NCBI RefSeq assembly: GCF_000372725.1
Contig: NW_005201360.1
Location: forward strand, 208,881-272,880
Source of the DNA: Emiliania huxleyi CCMP1516
Lineage: Eukaryota
Direction: 5' to 3'
Length of the DNA stretch: 64,000 bases
Shown here: positions 9,738-62,913 of the stretch, piece after piece
How positions within the stretch are numbered: position 1 is the stretch's first letter
Layout of the letters: each line of letters begins with the position of its first letter
The notes under the pieces: model-generated
What the model saw: the letters and a program-made list of their open reading frames with translations, nothing else
Told to the model about the DNA's origin: nothing
The model's database searches: none
Program-made: the position numbers and the translations under genes

Positions 9738-12700
9738 TTAGGCGGCGGCGGCGCGCGGGAAGCGCTGGCGGATGTGTCCCTCGAACTTCTTGCAGGCGGC
9801 GAGGAAGTCGCCCTCCTCGGTCGTGTCGGCGATGACCTCGTCGCCGTCCACGAGCGTGACGCGCATGTCGAGGTCGACGGCCGCCTTTGCGGCGGCGCCA
9901 TTCGCCGCCTTTGCGGCGGCGGCGTACGCGGCGCGCTCCTCCTCGAGGAGCTCGTCGACCGGCTGCTGCAGCGTGGCCACCTGTAGCCGAGGGGCGGCCA
10001 AAGTGCAGCCGAGGGGCGGCCGAGGTGCAGTCGAGGGGCGGCCGAGGGGCAGCCGAGGGGCGGCCGAGGGGAAGGAGAGGTGTGGTCCTCGGAATATTGC
10101 GGCTGCATCTCGGCTGCATCTCGGCTGCATCTCGGCTGCATCTCGCCCAAGAGTCGCCGGTGAGTGGCTTGCCAGTCAGTCGCTCGACGAGGCCCAGAAA
10201 TGGCTCAGAGTTGCCGGGCCGCCAGTACGCGTCCCGCAGCGTGGGGCCCACCTGTAGCGAGGCTCCGAGAGGGTCTCTGGGCTTAGGCCGCCAGCGGACG
10301 CCTCTCGCAGTGTGTGTGTGGGGGGGGGCACCCGAGGGTTGTCGACGATGACTCCGTCGCGCGCGGCGAAGAAGGCGCGCGTCTGGTGCACGGCCATCTC
10401 TGCGAGCACGTACCTGAGACGGAGCGAGATCGGCCGAGATCAGCCGAGATACGGCGGGCGGCCACCTCTCGGCGAGAGCACACACACCCGTGGTAGTAGC
10501 AGGAGGCCTCGTCCGAGAGCAAGTGCGGCACCGACAGCAGCGGCCGCCCGCCCGGGCCGCCCTGGATGCGCGTCTCCACCTCGTCGGCGAGCGCCTGGAG
10601 GAGGGGCCGGGCGTACCTCGTGCGCCGAGATGCGCCGAGATGCGCCGAGATGCGCCGAGATCCCCCCCTCTCCCTCCCACCTCGCCGGCGATCGCCTGGA
10701 TGGCGGCGGGGAATCTCGGGTGATCTCCGGGCAATCTCCGTGCGATCTCGCCTGGATGGCGGCGGCGCTCAGCTCTCCGTCGGGGAGCTCGTATAGCGCC
10801 TTCTCGAAGTAGGGCACCTACAGAGGGAGAGGGTCCGAGGCGGGTCGACGAGTGTGCCGCGCTCGTGCAGCGCCCCTCCCTCGAGGCGAGGTCACCGCCA
10901 GCATCGCGCGGAGCGAGAAGACCTCGTAAGGGTGCTTGGCGCGCACCTGCGGCAGAGGGCGCAGAGAAGGGCTTCGAGGAGTGCGCGACACGATTCGGCG
11001 GCGGCGGCTGCGGCTCTCGCGGCGCACGTCCTCCTCGTGCAGCGCAAAGGGGAGGGGCGACCCCTCGCGGTCGCGCGCGTACTGGAAGCGCCACGCCGCG
11101 TCGCCCACGAGCGAGTCGAGGAACATTGACTGCAGCTCGGCGTATGCGACTGAGGTTGGGGCGCGCTCCTGCGAGAGGCGTTGGCAGTGAGGAGGAGAGG
11201 AGAGGGGGGAGGGGAGGGGAGGGGAGGGAAGGGGAGTGAGAGGGGAGGGGAGGAGAGGAGAGGGAGAGGAGAGGAGAGGAGAGGAGGGGAGAGGAGAGGA
11301 GAGGCGAGGAGGAGAAGAGAAGAGAGGGAGAGGAGAGGAGAGGAGGGGAGAGGAGAGGCGAGGCGAGGAGGAGAAGAGAAGAGAGGCGCACGCCTGCGAG
11401 AAGAGCGGCGACGGCATCTTGATGTTGGCAAAGTGCGCCGCGTGTCCCGCCTCGTGCATGAGGGTCGTGAGAGCGGTGTGCCCCGACCCGACGGCGCTCG
11501 GATCGGCGAGCGAGGTGAAGTGCCTGTGCGAGCAAGTCACGAGAATCAGCGCGCAAGCTCCGCACGGCGCGGGGGTCGGCGAGCGGCGTGGGGTGCGTCA
11601 CGGTCGGCTGGAAGGAGCCGTCGGCCTTGACCCAAGCTGGCTGGGGCCAGTGGCAGAACCCGTTGCTGTACTTGCCTGCAGCACGAGGCGAGGACGTGAC
11701 ACAAGACAGTGCCGTGCCGTGGCAGCAGCCTGCAAGGAGGAGCAGTCTCCCTTGCGGTCGAGCAAGTCGAGCCGCATGCTCGCCCCCTCGTACGAGATGC
11801 CCAGCGCGGCGAAGGAGCGGCCCCACTGCTCGACGGCACGCTCGAAGGGGAAGTACGGGTCGAGCTTCTGCGTGACCTGAGCAGCGAGGACGGCGCAGCC
11901 GCGGCTCTCACCACCAGTGAGCCCGACAAAGGGGGAGCACCTCGAGTCTGCGCGTGACCGAGCCAGCCATCATATACGCAGAGTTGTACGCCAGCAGCGC
12001 CGCCTCGCCCTTGGCGGCGGCGAGGTTGGCGCGCGCCTCCTCCATCAGCGGGCGGGTGCCTGAACGAGAGGCTCCGGCGAGAGCAGGCTCACGGAAAGGC
12101 TGCGTGCTGCTCGACATCGCCGCATACCCCCCCCCCCCCCCACACACACACACACCACCACCACCACCACCACCGCCGCCGCCGCCACAACCACCACACA
12201 CTGTGGCGCGTGTGCCTCGCTCGCGCTCGAGGGGGCGCGTAGCGGAGGCTGCATCTCGGCCCCATCTCGGCTCTCCCTCGCCTTGCTCGAGCGTGTCGAG
12301 CATCCCGAAGAGGGCGCCTGTGGCACGGAGCAAGACTGGCACGTCACCGGACCGCTGCTGGCGGACCTCTGGGCACCTCGAGGCAGGCGCGCCCTTGCCG
12401 AACCCCTCCGCCTGCGTCACCTTGTAGTCGTAAAAGTCCTCGTAGCCGAGCTCGCGCGCCTGCAGAACGACGTCCCGACTCTTCTCTCGGAGTCTTCTCG
12501 CCCCGACTGCAGAAGGACATCCCGCCTGCAGCAGAAGGACTCTTCTCGCGAGTCCGAGAGAGGGGCGAGAAGGACGTCCCGCCCGAGTACTCGCGCGCCA
12601 TCGCGTTGCGGGCGCGGACGAGCTCGACGAAGCCGTTCGCCGTCACGAACTCGCCAATCGAGCGCAGCCCCTCCCAGCAGGCCTTGCGCGTCGCCTCGCT

Positions 12701-13729
12701 CCCGTCGACGCGCATCTTCGAGCGCAGGCCGACCGACGACAGCTCGACGAAGGCGCCTGAGAGAAGGGCTCAGGGACGGGTCCGAGAAGGCCCTGGCGCC
12801 GGCCGACCAGGCGTGACTCCGACCGAGGCGCCGTCGAGCACCGCGCCGAGCCGCATCTTGTTGCGCGCGTCCTCGAGCGTGCCCTCGATCGCGGTGCACT
12901 TTTCGCGCAGGGCGAGCGCAGCCTCGGACTCCATGATGTAGCAGCCTGCTCGCACGCGCAGCGCGTGAAGGGACGCGCGAAGCCATGCGTCTCGCTGACC
13001 CGAGGCGTACCGAAGGTGCGCTCAAAGATGGCGAGGGTGGCCCTCTCCGCCTCGGAGAGGTCGGAGCGGGCGAGGTACCCCCGCGTCTGCGCCAGCTTCT
13101 CCTTGGAGGCGAGGAAGGCCTCCATCTCGCCCTTGGCCTGCGTGGGTGCGCGGACGGCGGTCTGGGGCGGCGGTGGCGGTCTGGGGCGGCGGTGGCGGTC
13201 TGGGGCGGGCGCGGCGGTGGCCGTGGCACAGCGGCGCAGGAGCGGCCACAGGGACTGGCGAGGGCGGTGGTGGCGAGGGCGGCGGCGGCGTGGCTGGCGG
13301 CGACGCGGACGGCGGTGCGGCCGGTGGCGACGCAGGCGGCGGTGGATAGACGCCTTCGTCAAAGCGTCGACTGTATACGAGCCGTCTTTGAGTGCCATCT
13401 TTGTGCCCCAAAACTGCGGGTGGCGAGGTGATCATGAGCTTGACACAGAGACTCAGAGAAAGTGCGAAAGCGCAGAGGCTCAGGGCAAGGGCGAGCGCAG
13501 CAATGCTGTCGGGCTCTCGTATTGGCGGGCTCTCGTATTGGCGAGCCTGCTCCTCGAACGCCCGGTGCAAACCCTCGTACTGGGTGTTCACTTCTTCGAT
13601 GAAGGACGAGGGAGGAGTCGACATGCTAATGCGCTGTCTCGAGACTTCTGCGGCGAGCGTGCGCTGTCTCGAGACTACTGCGGCGAGCGTGCAGCAGCGC
13701 TCGGCAAATGTTAGTGTGACCAGGCGCAT
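9738..13729 (-). CDS. M3-family metallo-oligopeptidase, multi-exon
   Basis: HExxH in TLMHEAGHAAHF; downstream AYAELQSMFLDSL; YEGLHRAFEEQ; PYFEKALYELP; YWRPGNSEPFL. Start at 13729 or 13624. Confidence 0.85.
11188..11385. repeat. Purine-rich (GAGGA/GAGAG)n low-complexity tract inside an M3 peptidase intron
   Basis: Directly visible. Confidence 0.9.
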
Positions 13730-15535: not shown

Positions 15536-17733
15536 ATGGCGAGCCGGCCGTGGGCCCGGACGACGGCGCTGGCGAGCCGGACCGAGGCCGCGGCATCACG
15601 GCGGCGAGAAGGAGGGGCTTTGGCTGTATTCACGTGGAAGCGTAAGGGAGCCGAAAGCACTCCTGCGAACTGGGAAAATTCTTCTTTCTCGGCGCCCACC
15701 TCGCCGACGGCTCGGGGCGACCTGGCCTGGCTGCGCGCCTTCCTCTCCAGGCAGGGGACGAGCGGCACGTCGCTCGCGGCCCAGCTCGACGCGCGGCACG
15801 ACACCGAGAAGCAGGACACGCTGCTCACCTGGGCCGCTCGGCACGGGCAGGCCGAGGCGGCGCGGCTGCTGCTCGAAGGCGGCGCGAGCGTCGGGGGAAC
15901 GACTGGCGGCGGCGCGACCGCGCTGCACATCGCGTGCGGGAGAGGCCACCTCGAGGTCGCCCGGCTGCTCCGCGACGCTGGCGCGGCGGTCAACCAAGCG
16001 GATTCTGAAGGCCGCACGCCGCTGTACATCGCGAGCCTGCAGGGCCATGACCAGTGCGTCCGGCTGCTGCTCGAGGCGAGCGCGGCGGTCAACCAAGCCG
16101 CGGCGGATGGCGCCACGCCGCTGCTCCTCGCGTGCCATTACGGCCACGTCGAAATCGCCCGGCTGCTCCTCGAGGCTGGCGCAACGGTAAGCCAAGCCCG
16201 CCACGACGGCTCCACGCCGCTGTACGTCGCGTGCCAGAAGGGCCGCCTCGAGATCGCCCGGCTGCTTCTCGAGTCGAGCGCGGCGGTCAACAAAGCCCGC
16301 ATCAGCGGCTCCACGCCGCTGTACATCGCGTGCGAGAGAGGCCAGCTTGAGTGCGTGCAGCTGCTTCTCGAGGCTGGCGCGGCGGTCAACCAAGCCAAGG
16401 ACGGCGGCGCCGCGCCGCTGCCAGAGCGGCCAGCTCGAGTGCGTCCGGCTGCTGCGCGACGCTGGCGCTGACATCAACCAAGCGATTGATGATGGCACCA
16501 CGCCGCTGTACATCGCGTGCCAGAACGGCCACCTCGAGTGCGCCCAGCTGCTGCGCGACGCTGGCGCTGACATCAACCAGGCCGAGGAGAGCGGCGCCAC
16601 GCCGCTGTTCATTGCGTGCCAGAAGGGCCGCCTCGAGTGCGTTCAGCTGCTTCTCGAGGCCAGCGCGGCGGTCAACCGAGCCAAGCGGGATGGCGCCACG
16701 CCGCTGCTCATGGCTTGCAAGAACGGCCACCTCGAGTGCGCCCAGCTGCTGCGCGACGCTGGCGCTGACATCGACCAAGGGATAAACGATGGTCCCACGC
16801 CGCTGTTCATGGCGTGCCAGGAGGGCCAGCTCGAGTGCGTTCGGCTGCTTCTCGAGGCCGGCGCAGCGGTCGACCAAGCCAAGCAGGATGGCGCCACACC
16901 GCTGTTCGTTGCGTGCGCGCAGGGCCACCTCGAGGTCGCCAAGCTCCTCTCCTCCTTCGGCGCCTCCCGCGCCGCTACGCGCTACGGCACGCCCGAGGAG
17001 GTTGCAACCGAAGAAGTCCACGACGACCTCGCCGCTTGGCTGGTCGCCAGCCGCGGCTGGACGCCGCTCCAGCACCTCGAGGCGTGCCCCGAGACTAGCG
17101 GCCGAAGGCGCGCGCGCTGTCCTCACGCCCATTGCCCCTCTTCCGCAGGCGCTCACCTTCGAGCGGGCGCGGGCGCTGCTGCGCGGCGGCGCTGACCCGC
17201 TCGCCGGCGAGCCTTCTGCCCTCGAGCGGGCGCGCGTCCTCTGCTCGTGGAGCGAGTCGGGTCCGACCGCTGCGGCAGTCGGTTCCACAGTCGAGATCCG
17301 CTCTCTCGTCTCGCGGCCCTCGATGAACGGCAAGGTCGGCGTCGTCGTCTCCGCAAGCGCTTCGACGGCCCGCTTCGGCGTGCGCGTGGCGGACGAGGCC
17401 AAGGCACTCGCACTGAGGCGCGCTATGCAATGGTCTCTCCCCGACTCGCCGGAGCCTCCTTTTGACACACCTCTGCCCTCCCTCAGGCCGGCCAACCTGC
17501 AGCCAGCGGCCGAGGCGGTGGAGGTGGGCAGGCTCATCCTCAAGGCGGCGGAGTGGTCGCCGCAGTCTCACGAGCTCTTCTCAACGGCAGCTCGCAAGCG
17601 GGCGGTCGAGGTGATGCTGCTGGGCTACCTGATCGCTTGGGACGAGGATCGCTTCGACAGCCGCGAGGGAGCGGCCCCAGAGCTGGCGGATATCTGGCGC
17701 GGCTTTGTGCTGCCAAGGGTGGTGGCGCGATGA
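15536..17733 (+). pseudogene. Ankyrin-repeat protein (~12 repeats) with frameshift at 16420/16421; two 3' introns
   Basis: Repeated TPLxxAC..G.LE...LLL.AGA in ORFs 15287..16471 and 16347..17195; repeat 7 lacks ~11 nt; C-terminal exons end ...GFVLPRVVAR*. An assembly error cannot be excluded. Confidence 0.8.
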
Positions 17734-18809: not shown

Positions 18810-21800
18810 AGAGCAGCGACAGGAGACGCCGCAGCAGCACGCCGTGTACACGATTCGCGTCCCGCCCGGCGTGCGTCCGGGTGGAGCCTTTGTGGTGGAG
18901 CACCTCGGCAACCGCCGCCAGCCTCCCGCTCTCAGACCGCCACCCACCCACAGCTTTGCCGGAAGCTTCTCGGAAGCTTCCTCCTAGGCGGGCCACTGCT
19001 CGACCGCGACCCGAGCCTTGCCGGAACCTTCTCGGAGCCCTCTCGGAGACTCCCGTAGGCGTCCACTACCAGATCACCGCATCCGACCCGCCGAGGGAAG
19101 ACGGGGCGGTGGAGTGCTGGCCGCCGTCCCCCGCCGCAGACCGACCCCCGCGCCTTTCTCCGGAGCCTTGCTGGACCCTTCCTTCGCGTAGGTTGCCTGC
19201 TCCGCCAGGGCACCAGCCGGCACAGCCCGAGGTCGAGATCCAGGCGCCCGAGATCCAGCCGAGACCTAGCCGAGATCTAGCCGAGATGTAGGTGAGGTCT
19301 AGCCGAGATGTAGGTGAGGTCTAGCCGAGATGTAGGTGAGGTCTAGCCGAGGTCTAGCCGAGGTCTAGGTAGAGATGTAGCCGAGGTCTAGGTAGAGATG
19401 TAGCCCGAGGTTGAGATCCAGGTGCGTGCTGTGTGCCGAGCCCTGTCCGGGCTCCCGCCGGCGGACCGGAGAGGCTGACGCTTCTCGGAACTTTCCTCGC
19501 GGCAGGTGTGCCAGGCGGGCGCCTGCCGTCGGGCTGGCTCCGAGGAGCCGCCTCCTCGGATCGGGGAGGTGGGGGTGGGGGCCCTCCGAGGCGCAGCCTC
19601 TCGCCCACCCCTCTAGGCGGTCCTTCTCGAGATAGAGGAGCTGGGCGCCGGCTTGCTGTGCCTCTCCGTCAGCGCGGCAGACGGCCACCTCGGCCGTCGC
19701 CTCTGCGCGACCTGTCCATGACATGTCCGTGACATGTCCCGCAGGCGGACGGCTGCCTCGGCGCGTGCGACGAGGCGCCAAACGCTATCGTGGTCAGGCG
19801 CGAGATGAGCCGGGATGAGCCGAGCTGAGCCGGGATGTGCCGAGATGTGCCGAGGTGTGCCGAGGTGTGAGCCCGACGTCGCCACCGTCGCCAGGCGAGG
19901 GACGGAGGTGCTGCAATCGCGACTCGACAAGGTCGAAAAGCGGGCGGCGCTCGCCCACGACACGTCTGCGACATGTCCACGACGCGTCCACGACGTCCCC
20001 CGCAGGTCGAAAAGACGGCGGCGCTCGTCGCGGCCGCCACGGGCGCCACGCCCAACCTGGACGACCCGGCGCTGCGGCAGCGGCTCAAGGAGGCGCGGCA
20101 GGTGCGGGCGAGGCAGCAGGCGCGCGACGAGACGCGTGGGCGGCCCGTACCGACCGTTCGGAGCCTTGCCCCCACCCTCGCCCGGGTCCTCTTCTCTCTG
20201 CTCAGGCGCGCGAAGAGAAGAGGTGGAACGGCGCGATGCAGGGCTTGGCGGAGCAGGTCGCGGCGAGCGCGGACGAGTCGAAGCGGTTCGAGCCGCTGTT
20301 CGAGCGGCCGCGGAGTTGGAGGAGATCACTCGAGATTGGTCGAGATCGGCCGAGAATAGGCTCGACTTGCTGCTCGAGCTCGCGGAGCTGGAGGAGGCGG
20401 CAGGACAGTGGGAGGCTGCCCTCGAGCACCGGAGGGAGCTGCAGGCGACCCGCACCGAGATCAACCGAGATCGACCGAGATCGACCGAGGCCACCCGAGG
20501 TCACGTGAGGTCAACAAAGGTCGCGAGAGGTGACACGAGGGCCCACGGGGTGCAGGCCGCTTCGCCCGACGAGCCGCACGAGATCATGGACCTCGCTACC
20601 ACTCTCGGCAAGATGGGCAGGGTGCGCGAGATCGACGAGCTGCAGCGGCTCGCCGGAATTGCGGCCGCTCCCCGCGCCTGGCGGGACCCGTCCATCACTG
20701 AGCCGACGGCCGGGCGAGGTGTAGGCTCGCGGAGCGCGCTCTCTCCGACCCGGAAGACAAGGAGCTGCTCGAGCACGCCAGCAGACACATTGCCGACTGC
20801 CGGGTGGACGCGGCGAGGAGTGCGTCTGTCGGCGCCGCGCAGGAGGCGTGGGCGAGGGGCACGCGCTGCGGAGGCGTGCTCGGAGCCTCCTCCGGAGCCC
20901 CTCCCGGAGCCTGTACCTCTAGGTCGAGCGGCCCATCGACGGGTACGCGCTGTGGAGGCTCGCCAGCGCGACACCCGTCTCGAGGCACAGCGCGCTGTAC
21001 CGCTTCTCGTCCTCGGACCGCACGCGCGGCACGCCGCTCGGCAAGAGCGCCGGCGCCGAGGCGCTGCACCAGCGGCGGCGTGCACCCGGACGGTGCCTCC
21101 CCTCCCCTGAGCCTTCTCGGACCTCTCCCCGCAGTTGCGGCACGTGACGTGGCACGTGACGATGCTGGCGCGGGTGGGGCCGAACGCGGAGGGGCCGCTG
21201 CCGTGGGTGGAGAGGGACTACACGCCGGTCAGCACCTGGATGGACTGGGAGAAGGGGCGGTGCGACCTCTCCCCTCCTCCTCAAGCACCTCCCGCCCGGC
21301 CGGCCCAGGGCGACAGCTCCTGGGTGGGTGGTGATCTGGACCCCCCTCCCCCCCCCCTCCCTCCCCACCACAGGTGCGACATCCTCATCAAGACGTACCG
21401 GCCGGGCGTCGCGACGGGCTGGCTGCGCGAGTTGCCGCTCGGCAGTGCGGTGCACCTCTCGCAGCCGATGCAGACGCTCGACGTCCCTTCGCTGGCGCTC
21501 GACCGACGCCGCACCTGAACGAGCCGTCGCGAGAGGACCCTTCTCTGACACTTCCCTGGCCGCCCCCACCCCACCCCCCCGCAGGTGCCGGACAGCAGCG
21601 CGCTCGACGAGGCGTCGCTCGGACACAGCGGCGTCCTCCTCCTCCTCGCCGGCACCGGCATCGCCGTCGCGGCGAGCGCGCTGCCGTGTCACTCCGACCC
21701 GTCCAGGACACGTCCCCCACGACAGGTCCGGGACATGTCCCTCGGTAGGCGAGCGTGCTGCGCCATGCAGACCCTGCGAGCTGCTTCCGGCCGCCGGGCC

Positions 21801-22771: not shown

Positions 22772-26062
<3,291 letters not shown>

Positions 26063-34124: not shown

Positions 34125-34167
<43 letters not shown>

Positions 34168-34190: not shown

Positions 34191-34225
<35 letters not shown>

Positions 34226-40000: not shown

Positions 40001-40723
40001 GGTGCTCTGCGCTCGAGGAGAAGGAGGAGGAGAGGGGGGAGAGGAGGCAGGGGGGGACGGCGAGCCGTCGACGTTCGTGGCTTTTGCGACCCGCGACCAC
40101 GCGGCATCGGATCCGGCGGAGGCACAGAAAAGTCGACTCGGCGGGCGAGGTCGAGATCTCGGCGAGATCTCGGCTGCTGCTCGGCGGAAATAGGTGCAGA
40201 GAGTCGACGCGGCGGGCGGGCGCGTGCGCTGCGGGAGCGGCGGGGAGATGCGCGTCGCCGTCAACACGCCAGCCGGCAAGTGGCAGGTGATGATCCCACC
40301 CCCGCCCGGAGCTCCCAGGGTTGCAGCTCCCAAAGCGGGTAGCGCAGCTGCGGCCCCACTCCCACTTGCGGATGGCGGCGCACTTGCGGCGGCCGCATCG
40401 CGCAGGTGGCGGTCGCTCGAGCTCTCGGTGGGAGTGAGTGGCGCGGCGGCGGCATCAGCGACGCCGCGGACGTGACCACACTCCGCCTCGACGAGAGCCA
40501 CACCTTTCTGGTCCTCGCGTCGGACGGCGTCTGGGGCGTCCTCGACCAGCTGGCGGAGGGGTCGGCCGCGCGCTCTCGCGGCGTCGCGTGGCGCGTCGCA
40601 GCGGCGCGCGCCGCAGGCAAGAGCGCGGGGGACATTGCGGACGGGCTCGTGCGCTGCGCCGCGCGCGAGGGAGGCACCGACAACGCGAGCTGCATTGTGC
40701 TGCTCCTGGGGTCGGGAACTTAG
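37003..40723 (+). CDS. Ser/Thr kinase (STN7/STN8-like) - PDZ - PP2C phosphatase fusion with N-terminal signal/transit peptide, multi-exon
   Basis: AGQYGRI, AVAKR, HRDIKLEN, IDMGSAA, YAPPE; PDZ PLGLLLGE...AAASGR|VRAGDRLVSIDGET|VRDASLDEVMGML; PP2C ATQED, FDGHRG, NCGDCR, TRDH, VARALG, ASDGVW, GTDNAS. Confidence 0.8.
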
Positions 40724-41159
40724 ACGTTAGAGCTCCGCGGTAGAGCGACCGCTCCAACACACTCTCTCTTGCGCGTTCTTCACTCTTCTCGAGATCTCGT
40801 CGTCTTTTGCAGATTTTCCTGTACTATGCTTCAAATAGTGTCAGGTACAGTATTCACACAGCTCACAGGGATGTGCGCGTAAAAAGCTCCCTTGTCACCC
40901 TTTAGCCTTTTGACTCTCCCCCACACGGGATCCTGATGCGTATGCCGGGCGATACTACTACCCCCGGGGGGCCCAGTGGCGGTGCAAGGCTAGCCCCAAC
41001 TCGTGCCACGCGCCGCACCCGCTCGATTCGTGCGGGCGCCCAACAGTCTCCGCACCCAGAGGGAGCGACGAGGGCGCTGTCCCGAGCCAGCATGGTGGGC
41101 CCCGCCCGTCGCACAGCCGCCGCGCACACCTCCGTCAAATCACCCCACACAAGCTGCGG

Positions 41160-43203
41160 CTAGTCCTTGAGGCCCATGCCACGCCGCCGGTTCGAGCGCG
41201 CCACCTCCGCCTGCCGCTCGTCGGTGCGCGCGAGGAAGGCCTGCGGAGCGAGAGGGGGCCATCGGACGCGTGAGGGACGCGTCGCGGAACGTGCACGTCT
41301 CAGCAGAAGAGGTCGGAGGTGGGCCGAGACTGGCCGAGGTGTGTTGCGCGATGGAGAGGGGGACTGGCGGCGTCACCGCCTCGCCACTGACTGCCTCGCC
41401 ACAATTGCCCGTGAGAGTGTCTAGTAGTGTCTTTTGAAGTGGCTAGGGTGGTGTCTAGGAAGTGCCTCGCGCCTGCTTGGCGAGGTAGCCGTCCTTCGCG
41501 AACCGGTCCATCTCGTCGCGCGTCGCCTCGTCCTGCTTGCTCTTGAAGTTGCCCCAGTCGTGCCGCGACTTCTCCATCGTCGACATCTTCTTCTTGCCTG
41601 TGGCGCGGGAGGGAGGCGCCGGCGGAGGGTGTGCGCGGGTCGGCGGGCGGGCCGAGGGAGCTGAGGGGGAAACGGCAAAGCCTCGACGCCCGACTGCACC
41701 AATCCCTGCACCTCGGCCGCCCCTCGGCCGCCCCTCGGCTGCATCTCGGCTGCATCTCGGCTGCATCTCGCCGTCGAGCGAGGCGAGCAGCCCCTGCAGC
41801 CCCGTCGGCTTGGCAGCAGGCAGCTTCGGCGCGGGCAGGGCCGGCTTGAACTCGAGGCCTTCCGCCACCTGCAGGAGGGCCCCGAGCAGGCTGGGGGACG
41901 GCTCCTGTGGGCAAGCTCTGAACTCGAGGCCGCCCGCCACCGACGAGGCTGCCCCGCCCTGCTCCGCCATCTGCCTCTGCAGCGCCGACGACGCGTCGAC
42001 CGCCTGCGGGAAGGGTCGCGGAAGGCTCGCGGAAGGCTCGCGGACAGATCCGCCTCGTGCAGCGCCGAGGAGGCGATGGCCGCCTGCTGTAGCGACGGCT
42101 TGGCGGAGGGTGCGGCTGCGGCGGCGGCACCCTTGCCGCGCCCGATGCCGCCCGCCTCGCGCTGCTGGTAAGCGAGGTGCTCCTGGAGGTGGCGCTCCGG
42201 GAAGGTTCAGGGAGGGTTCCGACTCCCTCTGCGCTGCGGGTGGGGGCGGTGGCGGTTTCCTTGCTCCCCGCCTTGACCTGCTTGGTGACCACGAGCTCCT
42301 CGCCGCAAAAGTCGACCGCCTGCGGGACGTGTCATGAAGGCAGGGAGGGGCGAGTCGAGGGCAGCGGCGGAGCGGCGCAGTGGCCAGCCGCCGAGGAGGG
42401 GATGGTGGACACGGCCGCACGCGCCGAGAAGGGAACGTTGAGGGGTGGAGAGGGGGCGGGGACGCGCGGCGTGCCGACACGGCCTTCGCCCAGTCGCACA
42501 GGGGTGGAGGGGAAGCGGCGGAGGGAGAGCAGGCGTGGCGCGCCTGGGTGATGGTCACCATCCCGCTCCCCGCCCCGCCGCCGTCCGAGGGGCGCGACGC
42601 CGCGCCCGCCGTCTTCGCGAGGAGCGCCTTGATGTCGAGCCCGCCGCCCTTGCCCACCGCGCCGCCTCCTCCGCCGCTCCCGCTCCCGCCGCCCGCTTTT
42701 CCCGCCGCCGCGCCGGGCACTGCCCGTGCCGGCTTTGCTGCCGGCGCCCCGCCGTTCATCTCGGCCCACAGGTCGTCCACCTTTGTGTTGCTGCTCGCCG
42801 CCTCCGCCTCCGCCTCGCTCGGACCGCCCGCCTCGCCCGCCGCCTCGTCCGCCGCCTCGTCCGGCTCTCCCGCTGCGGCCGCCTCGGCCGCCTCGTCATC
42901 AGACAGCGCGATGCCGCCGCCGCGCTTCGGAGCACCGCCCGCCTTCTTCTTCTTCTTCGCCGGCTTCTTGGGCTTGGGCGCCTGCCGCTTCGCGCCCCGC
43001 CCCTTGCCCTCGCTGTCCGCCACCGGCCCCACTTCCACCGCCGTCTCGTCATACTCTAGGTCGCCGTCCGAGTCTGAGTCGCCCTCGCCGGCGGAGGGGG
43101 CGTAATCGGCGTCCTCCTCCTCCTCCTCGTCGTCCTCCTCGCCCTGATCCTTGTCCTCCTCCACCTCGTCCTCCTCGACCAGGTCGCGCACGGTAGTCGA
43201 CAT
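41160..43203 (-). CDS. SWC5: BCNT-C domain protein (CFDP1/Swc5, SWR1 complex subunit)
   Basis: Acidic N-terminus with DADYAP; KVDDLWAEM; C-terminal MSTMEKSRHDWGNFK...KDGYLAKQ|AFLARTDERQ. Confidence 0.85.
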
Positions 43204-48764: not shown

Positions 48765-50004
48765 CTAGTCCTCGGCCGCGACAAAGTCGAGTTGCTCCTC
48801 TGCCGAGTAGCCGAATCGCTGCTTGTGCCGCTCGAAGAGGTCGAGCACCGCCGCCATGTACTGCTCGTGCACCTGCTGCACGTACTGGTCGTCGCAATCT
48901 GGGTCGTGCCGGATCGACATCGGCGCACCCCACACGTAGCCGAGAGATATGGGCGTGCCATCCGCCTGTGCGACCTTGCCAACGAAGCTCCACCATCGGC
49001 CAGCGAGGGCGCACCCCGCCAACTTGAAGCGCCGGTGCAGAAAGGCGCGCAGCGACGCCGGCAGCAGGACGATGTCGTGCACCCACTTCTCGCCTACCGG
49101 CACGCTCCAGGAAGGCTGCGCGGGAGCGTTCCCTTCAGGGCGATGCGCCCAGCATCTCGCCAAAGCAGAAGCCCGGCACTAGCTGCAAGCCGTGACGGAT
49201 GGCGAGCTTGACGAAACCCTTGCGCCCGAGCAGCACCAGCTTCGTGGTGGTGGAGTGGCCGTCGGTGAGCATGAGCTCTCGCGTACCGCCGGGGATGAGC
49301 ATGACGCTCTCGCCTGCGGGAGGGCTCGAAGACGGCTCGGGGAGCGGCTCACTGCTGCCGCGGCTACTCGCTAAGTGCTCGCCACGCGCGATCGCCCGCT
49401 CGAGGACGGGGCGCGACGCGTCGAGGCATCCTAAAGCGGCGGAGGCGGCCGTGAGAAACAACGCGGCGGGCCTGCCCGTGCCACGCGAGGCAAGACCGGA
49501 GCAGAGGCTGAACTCGCGCACGCCGGGAATAAAGAAGGCGCCGCCGAACGACCCCCAACGCGGCCGAATATCTCCGTACATCTGCCTCCAAAGAGAGCCG
49601 CCCGAGAAGGCGCGGCAGACGCCGAAGATGCCGTGCGGAGACATGGCGAACAGGTACCGCCCCTTTGGGTCGAGCGGCGGCCCCTCTCGTATGCACGTTG
49701 CGTTGTAGTAGCCGAGCACGAGGTCGACAACGCCGCTGTAGAGGAACCACGCAAATGGCCATCCCGTGGAGTTTTGTGGCCGATAAACGACAATTTGACC
49801 GAGGTATGCGAGCACGAGCACAGCCGCCGAAGAAGCTGAGAGCGCCCCGAGCTGCACGAGGCTCCAAACAGCCAACAGCGCCACGAGCCAGAAGCAAAAG
49901 TAGCTGGAGAACCAGAGTGCCGCAATGATCTGCAGCACGCCCACAGGATGCCAGATCGGCCTTCGGCGGCGATGGAGCACCAGATTTTTGGCGTCGGCCG
50001 CCAT
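48765..50004 (-). CDS. DGAT2: Diacylglycerol O-acyltransferase type 2 / MOGAT family, multi-exon
   Basis: YLFAMSPHGIF, FFIPGVREF, ESVMLIPGGTRE, RKGFVKLAIRHGLQLVPGFCFGE, VHEQYMAAVLDLFERHK. Confidence 0.9.
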
Positions 50005-52715: not shown

Positions 52716-52735
52716 AACCGCTCTCGACATAAACG

Positions 52736-53069
52736 AAGCGGCGAACGAGGCACGGTCGCTCTCCCAAATGAGGCGCCTTGCGCTTTGTTTCCAGTGCTGC
52801 CCTGGCCTTCTCGTTGCCCGCCCAATGGGTGGCAGGTGCCTCTGCTGCAGTGGCATGCCTCACGCGTCACGGCTGCGACTGGCCGGCGCCCGCTCGGCGC
52901 GTCAGCTCGGCTCGGCGTAGTGATAGTGGCCAGCGCAACTCGCCTGGACTCAACGCTCAGCCAGGAGCTCCCGCACGCGCTGGCGCGAGTCATGGCGCAT
53001 GCAACGCGTCTGAATGCTCGCCTCGCCTCGCGCAAATGCGACCGTCCTCGCAGCCGACAGTCCACCGCC
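52736..53069 (+). repeat. Dispersed ~330-bp repeat, copy 2
   Basis: Matches 35409-35728. Confidence 0.9.
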
Positions 53070-53392
53070 CGCCGGCCTCACCTCCATCGGCGACGGCGCC
53101 TTCCGCGGCTGCTCTGCCCTCGCCCGCGTCACCGTGCCAACCACTACCACCGTCGGCAACAACGCCTTCCCCTCCACCGACGCCGTTCTCCGCCTCCCGC
53201 CCGCAAAGCATGCGCTGGTACGAGGCGGTGGATGGGGCTCTGGCCTGCAAGCGCTGCTGCCCCCTCCTCTACGGCTGGCTGGAGCGGGCCCAGATCAGGC
53301 TCGGCTCGTACGGCCCGGACGGTGCGGCGCGCCAGCGCGACCGCGAGGAGTTCGAGGGCGACTTTGCAGACCCTACGCTCCATGCAGACTGA
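53070..53392 (+). pseudogene. 5'-truncated BspA-type (LRR_5) leucine-rich-repeat gene remnant with frameshift
   Basis: PAGLTSIGDGAFRGCSALARVTVPTTTTVGNNAFP then, in another frame, RWYEAVDGALACKRCCPLLYGWLERAQ...; no start codon. Confidence 0.75.
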
Positions 53393-53562: not shown

Positions 53563-56500
53563 ATGCCCATCACTGCCAGCTCGGGCTCCGCCGCCTTCGC
53601 CAAAGCGCGTCCCGACCTGGACGGCCTCATCAAGCGCCGCTTCTTTTACCGGCAGGCCTTCGAGATCTACGGCGGCGTCGCCGGCTTCTACACGTACGGC
53701 CCGCCCGGTGCGGCGGTCAAGCAGAACCTGCTCGCGCTGTGGCGGAAGCACTTTGTGATCGAGGAGAACCTGATGGAGGTGGACGACACCAACATCATGC
53801 CGCACGACGTCCTCTTCGCCTCGGGCCACGTCGAGCGCTTCAATGACTTTATCGTCAAGGACTCGTCCGACGCCAACCGCTTCTGGCGTGCTGACAAGCT
53901 GCTCGAGGAGGTGATGGAGGCGAAGATGGCAGACAAGGCGTGCACGCCGGAGCAGAAGGTGGAGTATCAAAAGGTGCACGCCCAGGCCGACGCCTACTCC
54001 GCCGAGCAGCTCTCTCAAGTCTTTGCCCAGTACGGCATCAAGGCGCGAGGCACCGCCGCCCGCTCTCCTCCACCGCCGCACCCTCTGCCCGCACAGTCAC
54101 ACCGCCACGTCTTCGCACCCTCTGCCCTCCACTGTCGCCGCGCCCATCCTCACTGCCACCGCCCTCGCCGCCGCCCTCGCCGCCGCCGCCCTCGCCGCCG
54201 CCTCCCACGCCGCCGCCCTCCCTCGCCGCCGCCTCTGCAGGCGCCCGAGAGCGGCGCCGAGCTGACGCCGCCCGAGGAGTTCAACTTGATGTTCGCGACG
54301 CCCATCGGCCCGTCGGGGATGATCCAGGGCTACCTCCGCCCAGAGACGGCGCAGGGCATCTTTCTCAACTTCAAGTTTTGCCTCGAGCAAAACAACTACG
54401 CGATGCCGTTCGGGATCGCGCAGGTCGGCAAGGCGTTCCGCAACGAGATCGCGCCGCGCTCGGGCCTCATCCGGCAGCGCGAGTTCACGCAGGCCGAGAT
54501 CGAGTACTTTGTCCACCCGCAAAAGAAGGCGCACCCAAAGTTCGCCGCCGTCGGCTCCCTCCAGCTCGAGCTGCTCCCGTCGCCCCAGCAGCTCGCAGCG
54601 CAGCCGGCGGTGCGCATGAGCCTCGCCGAAGCCGTCGCCGCCGGCACCGTCGCCAACGAGACGCTCGGCTTCTTCATCGGGCGCACGTACCAGTTCCTGG
54701 TCCGCGCGGGGTGCAAGGCGGAGCACATACGCTTCCGGCAGCACCTCCCAGACGAGATGGCGCACTACGCGTGCGACTGCTGGGACGCCGAGATCGAGAT
54801 GTCCCTCGGCTGGGTCGAGTGCGTCGGTGGTTGAGACCCGAGATTAGCCGAGATTAGCCGAGATTAGCCGAGATCGAGATGTCCGTCGGCTGGGTCGAGT
54901 GCGTCGGCACTCGTGCCCGACTGGTCCGCGTGCGTGCGCGCGCCGTGGTCAGCCGAGATGAGCCGAGGTGCGGCGAGACTAGGCATCGCCGACCGGTCGG
55001 CGTACGACCTGACCGTGCACGCCAAGGCGACGAACACCCCGCTCATCGCCGAGGAACCTTTCGAGGTGCCGGTCAAGGTTGAGCGGTACGGGCTGAGCAA
55101 GAAGGCTGCGGCCGCTAGATGCGGGACCTCTCCCCAGATCCTCCCCAGATGCTCCCCAGATGCTCCCCAGATGCTCCCCAGATGCTCCCCAGATGCTCCC
55201 CAGATGCTCCCCAGATGCTCCCCAGATCCTCCCCAGATGCTCCCCAGATGCTCCCCAGATCTCCCCAGATGCTCCCCAGATGCTCCCCAGATGCTCCCCA
55301 GATGCTCCCCAGATGCTCCCCAGATGCTCCCCAGATGCTCCCCAGATGCTCCCCAGATCTCCCCAGATCTCCCCGTATCTCGAGGCCTAGATGCGGGGAT
55401 GCAGAGGCCTGTACCTGCACTCCGACTAGCGCTCGAGAAGAAAGACACACCGTCCGTGTGCAGCTGTCTTCGTAGCCCTCGCGGTGACGCGGTGCTCCGA
55501 AGACACACTGCTCGACTCCGCCTCCTCCCCTACCCCTGGCGCACTCCTGACGCAGGCGGCGGCAGCACTCGGCAAGTCCTTCAAGAAAGACGCCAAGCGG
55601 GTGACGGGCAAGCTGGATGAGATGTCAGCCGAGGAGCTCAAGGCGCTCAAGGCGACGGCGGAGGCGGAGGGCAAGGCGCCGCGCGCACGCTCACACACAG
55701 ACCCAGCAGCGGAGCCCCCCCCCCCCCCCCCTCAACACACACGGCCGACGGCGGGGGGGGAGAGGCGCGTGGTCGGCGACGGTGGAGAGTCTCCCCACTG
55801 CGCGGCCTCCCTCGCCTGCAGGCGTCGCTGACGGTGAGCGACTGCGGCGGCAGCGACACTTTCGAGATCGCCAACGAGCTGCTCGTCTTCGAGGCGACGA
55901 GCGGAATTGCCCGACAGCCGAGAGGACAGCCGAGAGGACAGCCGAGACCAGCCCCGGGCCCTCGCCCCCCTCGGGCGTGTGGAGTAGCCCAGCTCCCTTC
56001 CCCCTCCCGCCAGGCGACAACCACGATCATGCACGTCGAGAAGTACACGCCCAACGTGATCGAGCCCTCCTTCGGCATCGACCGCATCCTGACCGCCATC
56101 TACGAGCACACCTACTCGGTGCGCGCAAAGGAGGGCGACGCGCCCGAGGAGCCGCCGCCCAAGAAGGGCGACAAGAAGGACAGCGCGACAGACGCCAAGC
56201 CGGGCGTGCTCGCGTTCCCGCCCGAGGTTGCTAACCCTACACCTTAGCCCCCGCCCCAACCCTAACCCTAACCGTGCTCGCCTTCCGCCCGAGTTTGCGC
56301 CGTACAAGTGCAAATCTCCCCCGATCTCCCCCTACCTCCCCCTATCTCCCTCCCTTAGGTTGCGCCGTACAAGTGCGTCGTGCTGCCGCTCGACATGCGG
56401 ATTGTCCGCGAGTGCGAGTACGCCGGTATGCGCGACGCGCTGCGCGCCACCCTGTCCGAGCAGGGGCTGCAGTACAAGGCTGGACGGGCCGGCGCGCCTC

Positions 56501-57080
56501 TTCCTTCCTGAGTGAGCGGGTGACTACCTTGTGCTCATGTGCAATAGGTGGACGAGTCGGGCGCGTCAATCGGCAAGCGGTACGCGCGCTCCGACGAGCT
56601 CGGCATCCCGTTTGCAATCACGATCGACGAGGACTGCCTCAAGCAGTTTAAAGCGGACGCCGCGAGCGCCACGGCCACGCTGCGCGAGCGCGACTCGACG
56701 CGGCAGGTTGGCGGGTAGCACTCTTCTCAACGCCGCTCCCGCCCGTCTCACCGGGCGTGGATGGAGATGCGAGGGGAGTGCGCCCCTGTCCCTCTTTAGC
56801 GCGCGGCCGGGGGGGGGGGGTTGCCTGACGCTGCCCGGCACCCCAGGTGCGGCTGCCGCTCTCGACGATCGCGCAGACGGTCGCCCAGCTCTGCTCGGCC
56901 AGCACGCTCACGTGGGACGAGCTCGATGCGGACTTTGCCGGCACGGGCGCGGACCCGAAGGTCGCGTACCTGAAACAGATGGGCGTGGAGGAGGCGCTCA
57001 GCGCCGCCGTGACTGCGCTCGCCAAGGAGAAGCCGGCCGACCCGATGAAGTGGCTGTCGGCACGGTTCGCCGCTCTGTGA
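53563..57080 (+). CDS. GARS: Glycyl-tRNA synthetase (eukaryotic homodimeric type) with C-terminal Dpy-30/RIIa-like motif, multi-exon
   Basis: [91 protein letters not shown]; tail [31 protein letters not shown]. Confidence 0.95.
55130..55375. repeat. 11-bp tandem repeat (ccccagatgct)n in GlyRS intron
   Basis: Directly visible, ~20 units. Confidence 0.95.
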
Positions 57081-59247: not shown

Positions 59248-60631
59248 GAGCGGCCGCTCACTGCTCGGTACCCCCCCTTGCACATCTAAAGCCATCCCTG
59301 CTGCTAGGGGGGGGTCTGACCCCCCCAGCAGCAGAGCGCTGCTGCTGGGGGGGGGGGTCCGGACCCCCCCAGCAGCAGAGCGCTGCTGCCGGGGGGGGGG
59401 GTCCCGACCCCCCCAGCAGCAGAGCGCACGGACCCAGCTCTCCCGCCTCTTCGCCGCCGCCCCACCCTCCACCCTCGGCTCGTGTTTGAGCGGTACGCTC
59501 GAGGCGGTTGTGTTCACCGCGCCTTCGAGCCCAATACACCTAGCAGCCCGACCGCCGCGAAGCGTGATGATAGCGAGAGGTGTACTCCGCGAGGTTGAGC
59601 GCTGCACGCGGTACTTGGCGGTGTCGCAGCGTCGAGCAACACTCGGTGTCAGAGCGTCGCGCCAAATCAGTAGTCTCATCACCGAGTGATTGCTGGCCTG
59701 TGGCGTATGACCTCACGCGGATATCACCAACGATGAGCATGCGAAGATAGGGAACAATATCTTGTACAGGCTGTGCTCCCAGGGCTGTGCCACGGCGTAT
59801 GCCGATGGGCTGCGAGAGCCGTATCTTCCCTCCTTGAGGCAGAGGCGCCGCGATGCACGAGAGGCGTAGAAGAGAGGCTGGCGTGCCCCGCACCTCCCGG
59901 TTGGCAGTAGGAGGGCCCGCCGGTGAGACCACTGATTTTGGTGCCGACCATAAATTATCGCCACTGGAACGCATGGGCATGCTACTTTTACAGCTGCTGT
60001 CTGTAGACTGTACAGAGATGCCAGCACCCCCCACAGGCAGAGCGCTCCTGCTGGGGGGGGGGGGTCCGGACCCCCCCAGCAGCAGAGTGCTGCTGCTGGG
60101 GGGGTAAGGATGTGTATAAATATTGAATATATTGCTCCAATACTTAGAGGCGCAGTCAATCTCCAATATATTGTCAATACTTAGAGGGGGTTGGCCCTGG
60201 TCTGGTCGGGGTGGACTCCGTTTCCAGCGATGGGAGGTCCATCCCGGGCTTGAGGACGCTCGAAAATCGCCTTAAATGGGCCAAAATCGCTTGAAAATCG
60301 CGATTCGCATCAAAATCGCTTTCTGCCATGCTTTCTACTCGCAAATCTTTCGATTTCAAGCCACCACATAGGCGATGTTTGGGTCAAATTTCAACATTTT
60401 ATGCTTTTTGAGGTAAAAATCAGCGATCAATACGTCAATATATTGTCAATACTTAGAGGGAAGGCTGTCAATATTCAATATCAATACTTAGAGGGGCGAG
60501 AATCAATATTTATACACATCCTTAGGGGGGGGGGGTCCCGACCCCCCCAGCAGCAGAGCGCTGCTGCTGGGGGGGGGGTCGGCCATGGCTTTAGATGTGC
60601 AGGGGGGGTACCGAGCAGTGAGCGGCCGCTC
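59248..60631. mobile_element. Foldback-like TIR element (~1.38 kb) with ~48-bp outer TIR plus arrays of ~40-bp double-palindrome units
   Basis: gagcggccgctcactgctcggtacccccccttgcacatctaaagccat (59248) vs reverse complement ending 60631; units ggggtccggacccccccagcagcagagcgctgctgctgg at 59300-59430, 60030-60104, 60525-60580. Confidence 0.85.
60105..60524. mobile_element. Nested AT-rich 420-bp MITE with 22-bp perfect inverted ends (TA-terminated)
   Basis: taaggatgtgtataaatattga (60105-60126) / tcaatatttatacacatcctta (60503-60524); four direct caatacttagagg motifs; sits in a G-run of the host element. Confidence 0.88.
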
Positions 60632-61385: not shown

Positions 61386-61492
61386 AAAAAATTGTGGTAA
61401 GCCCCCCAAAAAGAAAGAAAAAAACTGTTTTTCCGCGCGAGGACTTTTCGAGACTTTCCGAGAGTTGGCCTTTTTGCCATCGCCCAGCCAGC

Positions 61493-62913
61493 ATGGTGGC
61501 TGACCTGCTGCTGGCTAAGCTGCGCGAGCTACAGGCAACAGTCGAGTCGACAGAGCCGGAGGCGTCCATCCTTCCGACATGCCTCTCCCTCCTCGATCAG
61601 CTCGGCACGGTGCTCGGCGGCGGCGGCCCTCCCCCTTTAACGACCAGGGAGGACCGGTACGGCGGCGTCGAGATTGAGGTACCGATTTCTGCCGCGGACA
61701 CGCCGCACGCGCTCGGCGTTGAGCTCAGCCGCCGGATTGAGCAGTGGGCCGCCGCGGGCAAGCGAGGGCTCTGGCTCAAGATCCCGCTGGAGTGCGCCGC
61801 CTTTGCGGGCTCGGCGGCGGCGCAGGGCTTCCAGTTCCACCACGCAAAGCCGGAGTACGTCGAGATGACCCGCTGGCTGCCTACCGACCAGCCGAGCCCG
61901 CTTCCCGCCTACGCCTTCACCCAGGTACCCACCACCGCTCACCCGAGCCGTCACCAAAGTGTCTACTGCCGCCTTTCGCCCACGCCACCGCCTGCGCCTT
62001 TAGGTCGGCGTCGGCGGCGTCGTCGTCAACTCCGCGGGCCATGTGCTGATGGTGCAGGAGCGCGGCTCGGCAACACCTCGGCCGACTTCAGACCACTTCG
62101 GCTGCCTCGGCCAACCTCGGGCCACCTCGGCTGCACCTCGGCCCAGCTCCAGGCATCCGCCGTGCAGGAGCGCGTCTCTCCGACGGCGAAGATGCAGGGC
62201 AGCTGGAAACTGCCGGGCGGGCGTCGCGCGCGCACCGGAGGGCGAGGCTCTTTGGAGGGCCCTTCTCTGACGCTTCTCGGAGCCTTCCACCAGGCGGGCT
62301 CGCCGATCCGGGTGAGGACTTTGCCGACACGGTCGCGCGCGAGGCGCGCGAGGAGGCCGCCCTGGCCGCCGCCTCCGGCGGACGCCTCTGAGGCTCTCGG
62401 AAGCTTCCCGCAAGGTGCGCGAGGAGACGGGGATCGCCGCCTCGCTGTCCAACGGCGGCGGCGTCGTCTCGCTGCGCCACTCGCACGGTTTCCGGTTCGG
62501 CGTGGGCGACTTGTACGTGGTCTGGCGTGGGAGAGATGCTGAGGCTCGGTCGGGAGGGGGCCGAGAGGCGCGCCGTCGAGAGTAGGCGGCGAGTCTGTGC
62601 GCGAGGGCAGCGCACGCCGCCAAACGGTGACCATGCAACCATTAGTTAGGTGGTCAAGCTCGTGTGCGAGGGCAGCGAGGAGATCCAGATGAACGAGCGC
62701 GAGCTCGCCGGCGCGCGGTGGGTGCCGTGGGAGGAGGTCCGGGCGATGGTGGCGCCTGCGAGCGCAGAGAGCTTTGACGGAAAGGTGAGCCAGACCAACC
62801 TCGATTTCATCTCCAGCGCGCTCAGCGGAGCGCTCATCGCCGGCACGCCCACGCCAAGCAGCCGGCCGGGCGTAAGCTCGATGGTCTACACGGCGCGCGC
62901 AGCGGAGACTTAG
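61493..62913 (+). CDS. Nudix hydrolase (NUDT6 / plant NUDX8-like), multi-exon
   Basis: EDRYGGV, GKRGLWLKIP, GFQFHHAKPEYV, SPLPAYAFTQ|VGVGGVVVN, WKLPG|GLADPGEDFADTVARE|VREETGI (Nudix box). Confidence 0.92.

What the first reader, a model, noticed from the sequence alone, without database searches (positions are those of the whole stretch)
12430..62670. Introns begin with a degenerate copy of the start of the NEXT exon (systematic exon mimicry)
Seen (intron start vs downstream exon start): 19677 gcagacggccacctcggc / 19745 gcggacggctgcctcggc; 19932 gtcgaaaagcgggcggcgctcg / 20006 gtcgaaaagacggcggcgctcg; 20120 gcgcgcgacgagacgcgtgg / 20206 gcgcgcgaagagaagaggtgg; 21672 gcgagcgcgctgc / 21749 gcgagcgtgctgc; 37473 / 37540 gtgcgccgc; 37695 / 37764 gctgcacgctc; 38773 gtgcgcgagggcgacggcctcgtgcgcgtcgg / 38839 gtgcgcgcgggcgaccggcttgtgagcatcg; 38881 / 38962 gtgcgcgacgcgag; 39718 gcgagccgtcgcccctcgcgg / 39783 gcgagccgtcgcctctcgcgg; ~40121 / ~40194; ~56479 gctggacgggccggcgcg / ~56548 gtggacgagtcgggcgcg; ~62344 / ~62415; minus strand in BCNT (gtggcgggcggcctcgagttca / gtggcggaaggcctcgagttca), DnaJ and M3. 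It occurs in at least seven unrelated genes, 9-35 nt long and mostly on the donor side. Inference: either mass intron birth by staggered-break or tandem duplication (long TSD-like copies), or ongoing overwriting of intron 5' ends from spliced mRNA/cDNA. Either would explain why donors read GC/GA/GT like the next exon's first bases, and suggests a splicing system relying little on U1 donor consensus. I do not recall this being described as a system.
Basis: partly seen in the sequence, partly recalled or inferred. Interest (0 to 1): 0.9.

Follow-up and report, generated by a model that had tools for sequence, protein, structure and literature searches.

The report
Introns born from copied exon starts
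In the bloom-forming alga Emiliania huxleyi, over a third of the introns examined here begin with a worn copy of the first letters of the next exon, likely the scar of how they were born (a short stretch of gene was duplicated and filler DNA was put between the two copies), which would make this genome a large natural record of intron creation without jumping genes.

Summary
Real. The window is Emiliania (Gephyrocapsa) huxleyi DNA. All 12 quoted pairs are present; six are spliced as inferred in RNA-like contigs of three studies. In 65 introns defined without regard to the mimicry, intron starts match their own downstream exon above permuted pairs out to about nt 30. 24/65 exceed the 95th percentile (23/39 short introns, 1/26 long); the acceptor side is near null. 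All 65 downstream exons start with G. No terminal inverted repeats or single shared element were found. Three introns hold internal copies spanning the spliced junction. A related haptophyte locus shows perfect 14-17 nt copies separated by telomere repeats. GlyRS intron positions are mostly lineage-specific. Best reading (0.6): repeated 'X-filler-X' duplications, likely from break repair, create introns. The tolerant GC/GT/GA donor is taken from X and the AG from the filler, which explains the one-sided copy. Ongoing overwriting from mRNA is less likely: two strain differences are not mirrored and one copy keeps a probably ancestral codon. It is not excluded, because differences show no synonymous excess. 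New variant of break-repair or target-site-duplication intron gain; not found described for this species in my searches.

The parts
9981..13353 (-). Peptidase M3 gene region, 16 introns; donor-side copies above the 95th percentile at 12831, 12598, 12392, 11958, 11596, 10895
   Evidence: P0126 aligns 598/598; Pfam PF01432; scores
10595..10751 (-). M3 intron holding an internal copy that spans the spliced junction (-14..+19), flanked by CCGAGAT-type repeats
19677..20205 (+).
   Evidence: sequence; open frame on joining; no RNA test
21672..21748 (+).
   Evidence: no RNA test
23079..25714 (-). AI-2E transporter gene region, 16 introns; copies at 25714, 25577, 25442 (GA donor), 24805; intron 25123-24980 is two stacked ~70-nt units each starting like the exon
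   Evidence: P0186 aligns 491/492; PF01594
37003..40724 (+). Kinase-like / PDZ-like / PP2C fusion gene, 15 introns, 811-aa ORF; copies at 37473, 37695, 38105, 38637, 38773, 38881, 39230, 39718, 40122
   Evidence: RNA-like joints in X7, X10, X11; ORF; PP2C PF00481; kinase and PDZ labels from motifs, recalled
41241..42543 (-). BCNT gene, 6 introns; strong copies at 41940-41869 and 42083-42004
   Evidence: joints, snapped; PF07572
45916..45991 (-). DnaJ-like gene intron with donor-side copy
49094..49496 (-). DGAT2-like gene, 3 introns; copy at 49160
   Evidence: weak PF03982 hit below cut-off
54043..56846 (+). Glycyl-tRNA synthetase gene region, 8 introns; donor copy at 56479
   Evidence: donor of intron 4 (55670 or 55676) uncertain
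54827..54982 (+). GlyRS intron with internal junction-spanning copy: upstream half 40/41 identical, downstream half decayed; CCGAGATTAG filler
   Evidence: joint in 4 of 4 runs
56227..56358 (+). GlyRS intron with junction-spanning copy (-22..+18) behind a telomere-like filler; holds the only tandem CCCTAA pair in the window (56260)
62058..62167 (+). Nudix intron candidate in which the 13-nt duplicated segment contains AG|GA, so both splice sites may come from the duplicate
   Evidence: tested one base to the right, which gives the same joined sequence; no RNA test
62344..62414 (+). Nudix intron with donor-side copy and AAG acceptor
   Evidence: PF18290
46753..46827 (.). Intergenic X-filler-X: 17/17-nt direct repeat around a 41-nt spacer, same geometry outside a gene

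Best explanation
Many short introns of this alga start with a worn copy of the next exon's first 9-35 bases, likely because each arose when a short stretch of coding DNA (X) was duplicated with filler DNA put between the copies (X-filler-X), probably during repair of a DNA break. Shown: the copies, their donor-side polarity, their splicing, the lack of a shared element or terminal inverted repeats, and fresh X-telomere repeat-X cases in a related haptophyte. Inferred: where X begins with GC, GT or GA and the filler ends in AG, this tolerant spliceosome removes X plus filler and restores the mRNA exactly. Events without these ends would be purged, which would give the one-sided copy and the invariant G at exon +1. 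The intronic X then decays toward G/C. Later events across an existing donor would leave junction-spanning copies and lengthen the intron, so long introns lose the 5' match. Which enzyme makes the filler (telomerase in some haptophytes; an unknown template for the CCGAGAT-type repeats here) is untested.
For: Donor-side excess to ~nt 30, acceptor side near null; 24/65 above the 95th percentile. Exon +1 is G in 65/65 vs 12/23 in non-haptophyte GlyRS introns. Upstream exon ends in AG in only 5/24 mimic vs 20/41 other introns (p=0.035) and 7/39 short vs 18/26 long (p=6e-5), so the AG is not from X. No terminal inverted repeats: 0/39 above the 95th percentile. L055, in the haptophyte clade, has perfect 17- and 14-nt copies at intron start and exon start separated by fillers with 2 and 10 telomere hexamers, plus an 18/19-nt exon-end duplicate with telomeric filler. 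L053 has four stacked copies of acceptor plus exon start. 0/23 non-haptophyte introns score above the window's 95th percentile. GlyRS: 1 of 8 window positions is shared with the full-length intron-bearing haptophyte L003; the closest locus L054 lacks the one position it covers; L004-L007, L016, L017 and L057 show no credible introns. An intergenic X-filler-X exists at 46753. Halves of the 54827 internal copy differ in decay. Unmirrored strain differences at 38887 (copy only) and 39314 (exon only). The M3 12392 copy reads Glu like 11/14 homologs where the exon has Gly. Precedents: Daphnia neo-introns with 4-12 bp repeats from staggered breaks (PMC4202315); telomere insertion at breaks, with target duplication in a minority (PMC2246262).
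Against: No intron presence/absence allele was seen, so birth itself was not caught in this species. Intron age was tested on one gene only, and 5 of its 6 unshared positions are not individually significant mimics. Copy-exon differences show no excess at third codon positions: 34 observed, 31.5 expected if only the copy changes, 57.6 if exon third positions changed equally, P=0.0005. Yet strain differences are about as dense at third positions (12 in 812) as in introns (13 in at most 1285 nt). This needs constrained synonymous sites, error-prone copying at birth, or some homogenisation. Telomere-like motifs occur in only 3/65 window introns. Intron 3' ends resemble each other more than shuffles (25/65 vs 5%), which decayed mobile elements could also give. 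Only 2 of 14 haptophyte-locus introns pass the threshold, both in L055.
Confidence: 0.6

Rival explanations
1. The introns are decayed introner or retro-element insertions; the copy is a long, variable target-site duplication from which the donor is co-opted, and the element supplies the AG.
For: Same geometry as Symbiodinium and Polarella introners that carry the 3' site and take the 5' site from a GHNN or GHN6 duplication (10.1101/2020.10.14.339549). Intron 3' ends share motifs above shuffles. Chrysochromulina introners exist (10.1101/2022.06.06.494994).
Against: Copy length is variable and reaches ~35 nt, against fixed 4-8 nt. No inverted ends. Introns with near-perfect copies (41940, 39718, 38881, 25442) have unlike 3' parts. 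Fresh cases in L055 are filled with telomere repeats, not an element.
Confidence: 0.16
2. Older introns are repeatedly overwritten at their 5' end from spliced mRNA/cDNA or by DNA conversion from the nearby exon. Overwriting of the acceptor side is purged, so only donor-side copies persist.
For: No synonymous excess among copy-exon differences. Three introns contain copies that span the spliced junction; one of them lies at a position shared with three distant AT-rich loci (356, phase 1). At 3 of 6 sites where E. huxleyi differs from most homologs the copy has the E. huxleyi residue.
Against: 0 of 2 informative strain differences are mirrored. One copy keeps a homolog-like codon. Junction-spanning copies are also explained by two successive X-filler-X events, and in 54827 the halves differ in age. 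The two positions shared with other lineages (356, 625) have no donor-anchored copy (scores 2 and 10). It does not explain the telomeric filler that starts exactly where the copy stops in L055.
Confidence: 0.13
3. Plain tandem duplication of an AG|G-containing 65-80 nt segment (Rogers model); the 3' part decayed faster under splicing selection.
For: Accepted mechanism (PMC3443670). Plain tandem repeats are common in the window. The Nudix 62058 candidate has AG|GA inside the duplicate. Slight acceptor-side excess at nt 11-15.
Against: 19/24 mimic introns lack AG at the upstream exon end. Identity ends abruptly after 14-21 nt in the best-kept cases (38881, 39718; L055) and is null at nt 31-40.
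Confidence: 0.06
4. The match is kept by selection because this spliceosome uses it, for example one guide pairing with both intron start and next exon start.
For: Exon +1 is G in 65/65; donor and exon dinucleotides agree in 46/65.
Against: 41/65 introns lack a significant copy yet are spliced. Differences are biased A/T to G/C like neutral drift. No internal complement of the intron start was found in the last 35 nt.
Confidence: 0.04

Closest known systems
Intron gain during staggered double-strand-break repair (Daphnia pulex; PMC4202315 passages, PMC3443670 passages)
   Same: Insert flanked by a direct repeat of adjacent exon sequence; no common element; later internal events add repeats and length.
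   Different: Daphnia repeats are 4-12 bp (33 cases); here alignments reach ~35 nt, lie almost only on the donor side, and are seen in 24/65 of all introns sampled, not only in polymorphic new ones. The filler is GC-rich repeat DNA here and telomeric in L055.
Introners co-opting the 5' splice site from a target-site duplication (Symbiodinium, Polarella, Aureococcus; 10.1101/2020.10.14.339549 part 1 of 4, 10.1101/2022.06.06.494994 passages)
   Same: Intron start equals next exon start; GC/GA/GT donors; AG supplied by the insert.
   Different: Fixed 4-8 nt duplication, sequence families and often inverted ends there; variable long copies, no inverted ends and no end-to-end family seen here.
Telomere-repeat insertion at repaired breaks (mammalian interstitial telomeric sequences; PMC2246262 passages)
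   Same: L055 geometry: duplicated target with telomere repeats between the copies. Haptophytes use TTAGGG (10.1101/2024.05.26.595999) and Calcidiscus has pervasive interstitial tracts (PMC13518057).
   Different: Not linked to intron creation in the passages read; target duplication is a minority class there; window fillers are mostly not telomeric.
Identical repeated intron boundary (IRIB) of dinoflagellates (PMC5032977 passages) and direct repeats near splice sites (PMC11782384 abstract and passages)
   Same: Sequence repeated at both intron borders and present once in the mRNA.
   Different: IRIB is 2-11 bp, exact, and described as exon end matching intron end. The survey of 213 introns has no donor-side polarity test and no mention of huxleyi.
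Tandem genomic duplication (Rogers model; PMC3443670 passages)
   Same: Intron 5' end derived from downstream exon sequence.
   Different: Needs AG|GT inside the duplicate and no filler; not met in 19/24.

Membership tests
Spliceosomal (U2-type, GC-rich donor) introns of E. huxleyi | Removed from transcripts, G[CTA]...AG ends | tested here: met
   26 introns from RNA-like joints, 32 from near-identical proteins; donors GC 39, GT 22, GA 4
Introner (transposon-derived) introns | Families of introns similar end to end | tested here: inconclusive
   3' 40 nt share motifs above shuffles (25/65 vs 5%), but only low-complexity local matches; 65 introns only
Introner (transposon-derived) introns | Terminal inverted repeats | tested here: not met
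   0/39 short introns above the 95th percentile, mean 10.33 vs 10.32; note that many introner families lack them
Introner (transposon-derived) introns | Target-site duplication of fixed short length | tested here: not met
   anchored alignments of 19-38 nt among the 24 significant introns, excess identity to nt 30
Break-repair (staggered DSB) intron gain | Direct repeat of adjacent exon sequence at the far end of the insert | tested here: met
Break-repair (staggered DSB) intron gain | Intron absent in orthologs or alleles (recent gain) | tested here: inconclusive
   GlyRS positions mostly unshared among haptophyte loci; one gene only; no presence/absence allele seen
Break-repair (staggered DSB) intron gain | Dependence on end-joining or telomerase activity | not testable with these tools
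   inferred from geometry and from telomeric filler in L055
Rogers tandem duplication | AG at the upstream exon end, copied to the intron end | tested here: not met
   5/24; acceptor-side identity near null
Dinoflagellate IRIB | Exact 2-11 bp repeat, exon end matching intron end | tested here: not met
   copies are longer, degenerate and on the donor side

The most novel reading that the evidence does not exclude
Haptophytes mass-produce introns without transposons through a repair pathway that duplicates 10-40 bases and writes repeat filler between the copies. In some lineages telomerase is the writer: its C-rich strand supplies a pyrimidine tract and a CTAAC branch-point-like motif, its G-rich strand a TAG acceptor. 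A relaxed GC/GA donor rule turns the duplicate into the donor, so most short E. huxleyi introns are datable scars of this one process.
Probability: 0.35. Interest if true: 0.88.

Novelty: new variant of a known kind. Interest (0 to 1): 0.72.

Why it matters
How introns arise when no transposon is involved is a long-standing open question; break-repair gain rests on few cases with very short repeats. Here a large share of the introns in a sequenced, cultured alga with several strain genomes carry a long, polarised footprint whose decay could date each birth, so the model can be tested genome-wide with public data. It offers a cause for this species' GC/GA donors and invariant exon-start G. It also has a practical side: the copies mislead aligners (one search merged two introns) and gene prediction.

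Tried and rejected
No whole genome is held, so no genome-wide count and no U1/U5/U6 check; Rfam found no snRNA in the window. No listed holder is on record as RNA; runs were treated as RNA-like because their contigs skip G..AG stretches into an 811-aa ORF. Joints left out: one search listed 15 of 76 and I used 11 (dropped 39022/42798, 40036/40433, 41770/41737, 53208/53324: short sides, no G..AG ends); one search listed 15 of 16, I used 12 directly, resolved 2 compound joints and dropped 37597/38263 (one run). Viral-contig scans gave nothing useful: GlyRS none, telomere-plus-acceptor pattern none, the CCGAGAT repeat only five low-GC viral-collection contigs that look unrelated. An unfiltered AG-anchored scan was swamped by microsatellites and not used for statistics. 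Assembly artefact rejected. Hairpin or inverted-end pairing rejected. The first GlyRS model had off-by-one coordinates, replaced by spliced alignment. The 40-45 nt 'introns' near the C-terminus of L004-L007, L017 and L057 are treated as alignment artefacts in a divergent linker. PMC6726248 proved irrelevant. The E. huxleyi genome paper (Read et al. 2013) is not held; its remark on 10-11 bp intronic repeats is recalled only.


Full report
Identity of the window. GC is 66% with one 100-N gap. A 52-aa exon of the M3 peptidase is 100% identical to EMIHUDRAFT_454829 of Emiliania huxleyi CCMP1516, and the GlyRS groups with Prymnesium parvum. No whole genome is held. This species is already known for majority GC-AG and some GA-AG introns and for intron retention (PMC4028052, passages); those passages do not mention exon-like intron starts.

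The observation. All 12 pairs are present. To avoid circularity I built an intron set without regard to mimicry: 16 M3 and 16 AI-2E introns from proteins that align 598/598 and 491/492; 23 from joints in RNA-like contigs and 3 more implied by intervening letters; 7 GlyRS introns from an 84% homolog (one donor chosen by hand). The 15 introns of the kinase-like/PP2C gene give one 811-aa ORF. Rows dropped are listed under Tried and rejected. Donors are GC 39, GT 22, GA 4, and the next exon starts with G in 65/65.

Statistics. Identity of intron start to own next exon exceeds permuted pairs from nt 2 to about nt 30 and is null at 31-40. The result holds to nt 15 in the 32 protein-defined and the 23 RNA-defined introns separately. 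The acceptor side is at null except one bin of eight. With an anchored gapped score, 24/65 exceed the 95th and 20/65 the 99th percentile of foreign pairs, and the own exon is the best of 65 in 18 cases (acceptor side 6, 0 and 3). The signal sits in short introns: 23/39 of <=91 nt, 1/26 longer. Unspliced contigs of run X2 carry intron starts of the same gene, so this is not an assembly error.

Anatomy. A typical mimic intron is 65-82 nt: a decayed copy, then a filler with pyrimidine-rich or 10-11-nt CCGAGAT/TCTCGG-type repeats (15/65 and 12/65 introns), then AG. The upstream exon ends in AG in only 5/24 mimic introns, so the acceptor is not part of the duplicate. There are no inverted ends, and the 3' parts share only short motifs. 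Three introns hold internal copies across the spliced junction (10751, 54827, 56227); a fourth, weaker match at 55676 may be low-complexity noise. In 54827 the upstream half is 40/41 identical and the downstream half is decayed, as expected from two successive events. In 56227 the first filler is telomere-like. One intergenic 17/17-nt X-filler-X is present.

Relatives. One metagenome scan gave 58 GlyRS loci; 25 were spliced-aligned and 12 placed in a tree, where L003, L004, L005, L016, L017, L036, L053, L054 and L055 fall with the window and P. parvum (FastTree support 1.0; several are partial). The window's eight positions are mostly unshared: L003 shares one (625); L054 and L036 lack those they cover; L004-L007, L016, L017 and L057 show no credible introns. 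Position 356 is shared with three AT-rich loci that look like ciliates (my inference from in-frame TAA). L055 is the key case: perfect 17- and 14-nt copies separated from the true exon start by CCCTAA-rich filler, and an 18/19-nt exon-end duplicate around TTAGGG-rich filler. L053 stacks four copies of acceptor plus exon start. Of 14 haptophyte-locus introns, 2 pass the window's threshold and one equals it; of 23 non-haptophyte introns none does. No RNA was checked for these loci.

Birth or overwriting. Against overwriting: an X2 variant in the copy (38887) is not in the exon, an exon variant (39314) is not in the X2 copy, and none is mirrored (n=2); the M3 12392 copy encodes Glu like 11/14 homologs where the exon has Gly. 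For overwriting, or for error-prone copying, or for constrained synonymous sites: differences show no third-position excess (34 observed; 31.5 expected if only the copy changes; 57.6 if both change), and 3 of 6 lineage-specific residues are shared by the copy. Differences run mainly T>C and A>G toward the intron, like neutral drift. This result stays partly unexplained.

Mechanism. Shown: copies, polarity, splicing, missing upstream AG, no inverted ends, telomeric filler in L055. Inferred: a duplication-with-filler event, probably break repair, that becomes a clean intron when X starts with GC, GT or GA and the filler ends in AG; selection removes the rest; the copy decays; later events nearby stack copies and lengthen the intron. 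Untested: the enzymes, the source of the CCGAGAT-type filler, and the snRNAs.

Comparison with print. Closest are Daphnia break-repair introns with 4-12 bp repeats (PMC4202315, passages; PMC3443670, passages), introners that take the donor from a 4-8 nt duplication (10.1101/2020.10.14.339549, part 1 of 4; 10.1101/2022.06.06.494994, passages), dinoflagellate IRIB (PMC5032977, passages), a general survey of repeats near splice sites (PMC11782384, abstract and passages) and telomere insertion at breaks (PMC2246262, passages). The word 'huxleyi' does not occur in the main text of the two introner surveys. Ten library searches showed no paper describing this pattern in E. huxleyi or telomere-seeded introns in haptophytes, judged mostly from listings. 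The library lacks most subscription journals and the genome paper itself, and no supplements were read, so a prior description cannot be excluded. Two earlier AI notes of this scan describe single exon-duplication-plus-telomere inserts in unidentified marine microbes; they are leads, not support.

Verdict. A real and statistically strong feature. It works like break-repair or target-site-duplication intron gain but differs in length, polarity, scale and filler. New variant of a known kind; interest 0.72.

Noticed in passing
window 37003-40724 (+): One 811-aa ORF fuses a kinase-like region, a PDZ-like segment and a PP2C phosphatase; single RNA-like contigs of three studies span it.
   Followed up: partly
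window 33910-34666 (+): 3' part of a eukaryotic LSU rRNA directly after the 100-N gap, matched in three pieces; could be an rDNA end, a pseudogene or a mis-join.
   Followed up: no
window 39078: Donor polymorphism: GA in the window, GT in run X2, at an intron spliced in all four runs.
   Followed up: partly
window 24980-25123 (-), 12460-12598 (-), 10595-10751 (-): Compound introns made of stacked units that end in AG, candidates for recursive splicing.
   Followed up: no
window 59307-60575: Repeated GC-rich units with G-runs flanking an AT-rich stretch, with a related unit in opposite orientation; looks like the ends of a transposon-like element.
   Followed up: no
window 35403-35725 and 52735-53070: Two similar copies of a ~320-nt non-coding stretch, seen by eye.
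   Followed up: no
window 15921-16949 (+): Ankyrin-like 99-nt repeat array, apparently with a frame-shifting deletion near 16410.
   Followed up: no
L053:1950-2740 and L052: Haptophyte GlyRS intron of over 2 kb with four stacked acceptor-plus-exon-start copies and telomere-like runs; identical over 1399 nt in two metagenomes.
   Followed up: partly
L055:1-1083: Every intron in this 1-kb haptophyte contig is built from telomere repeats, in both orientations.
   Followed up: yes
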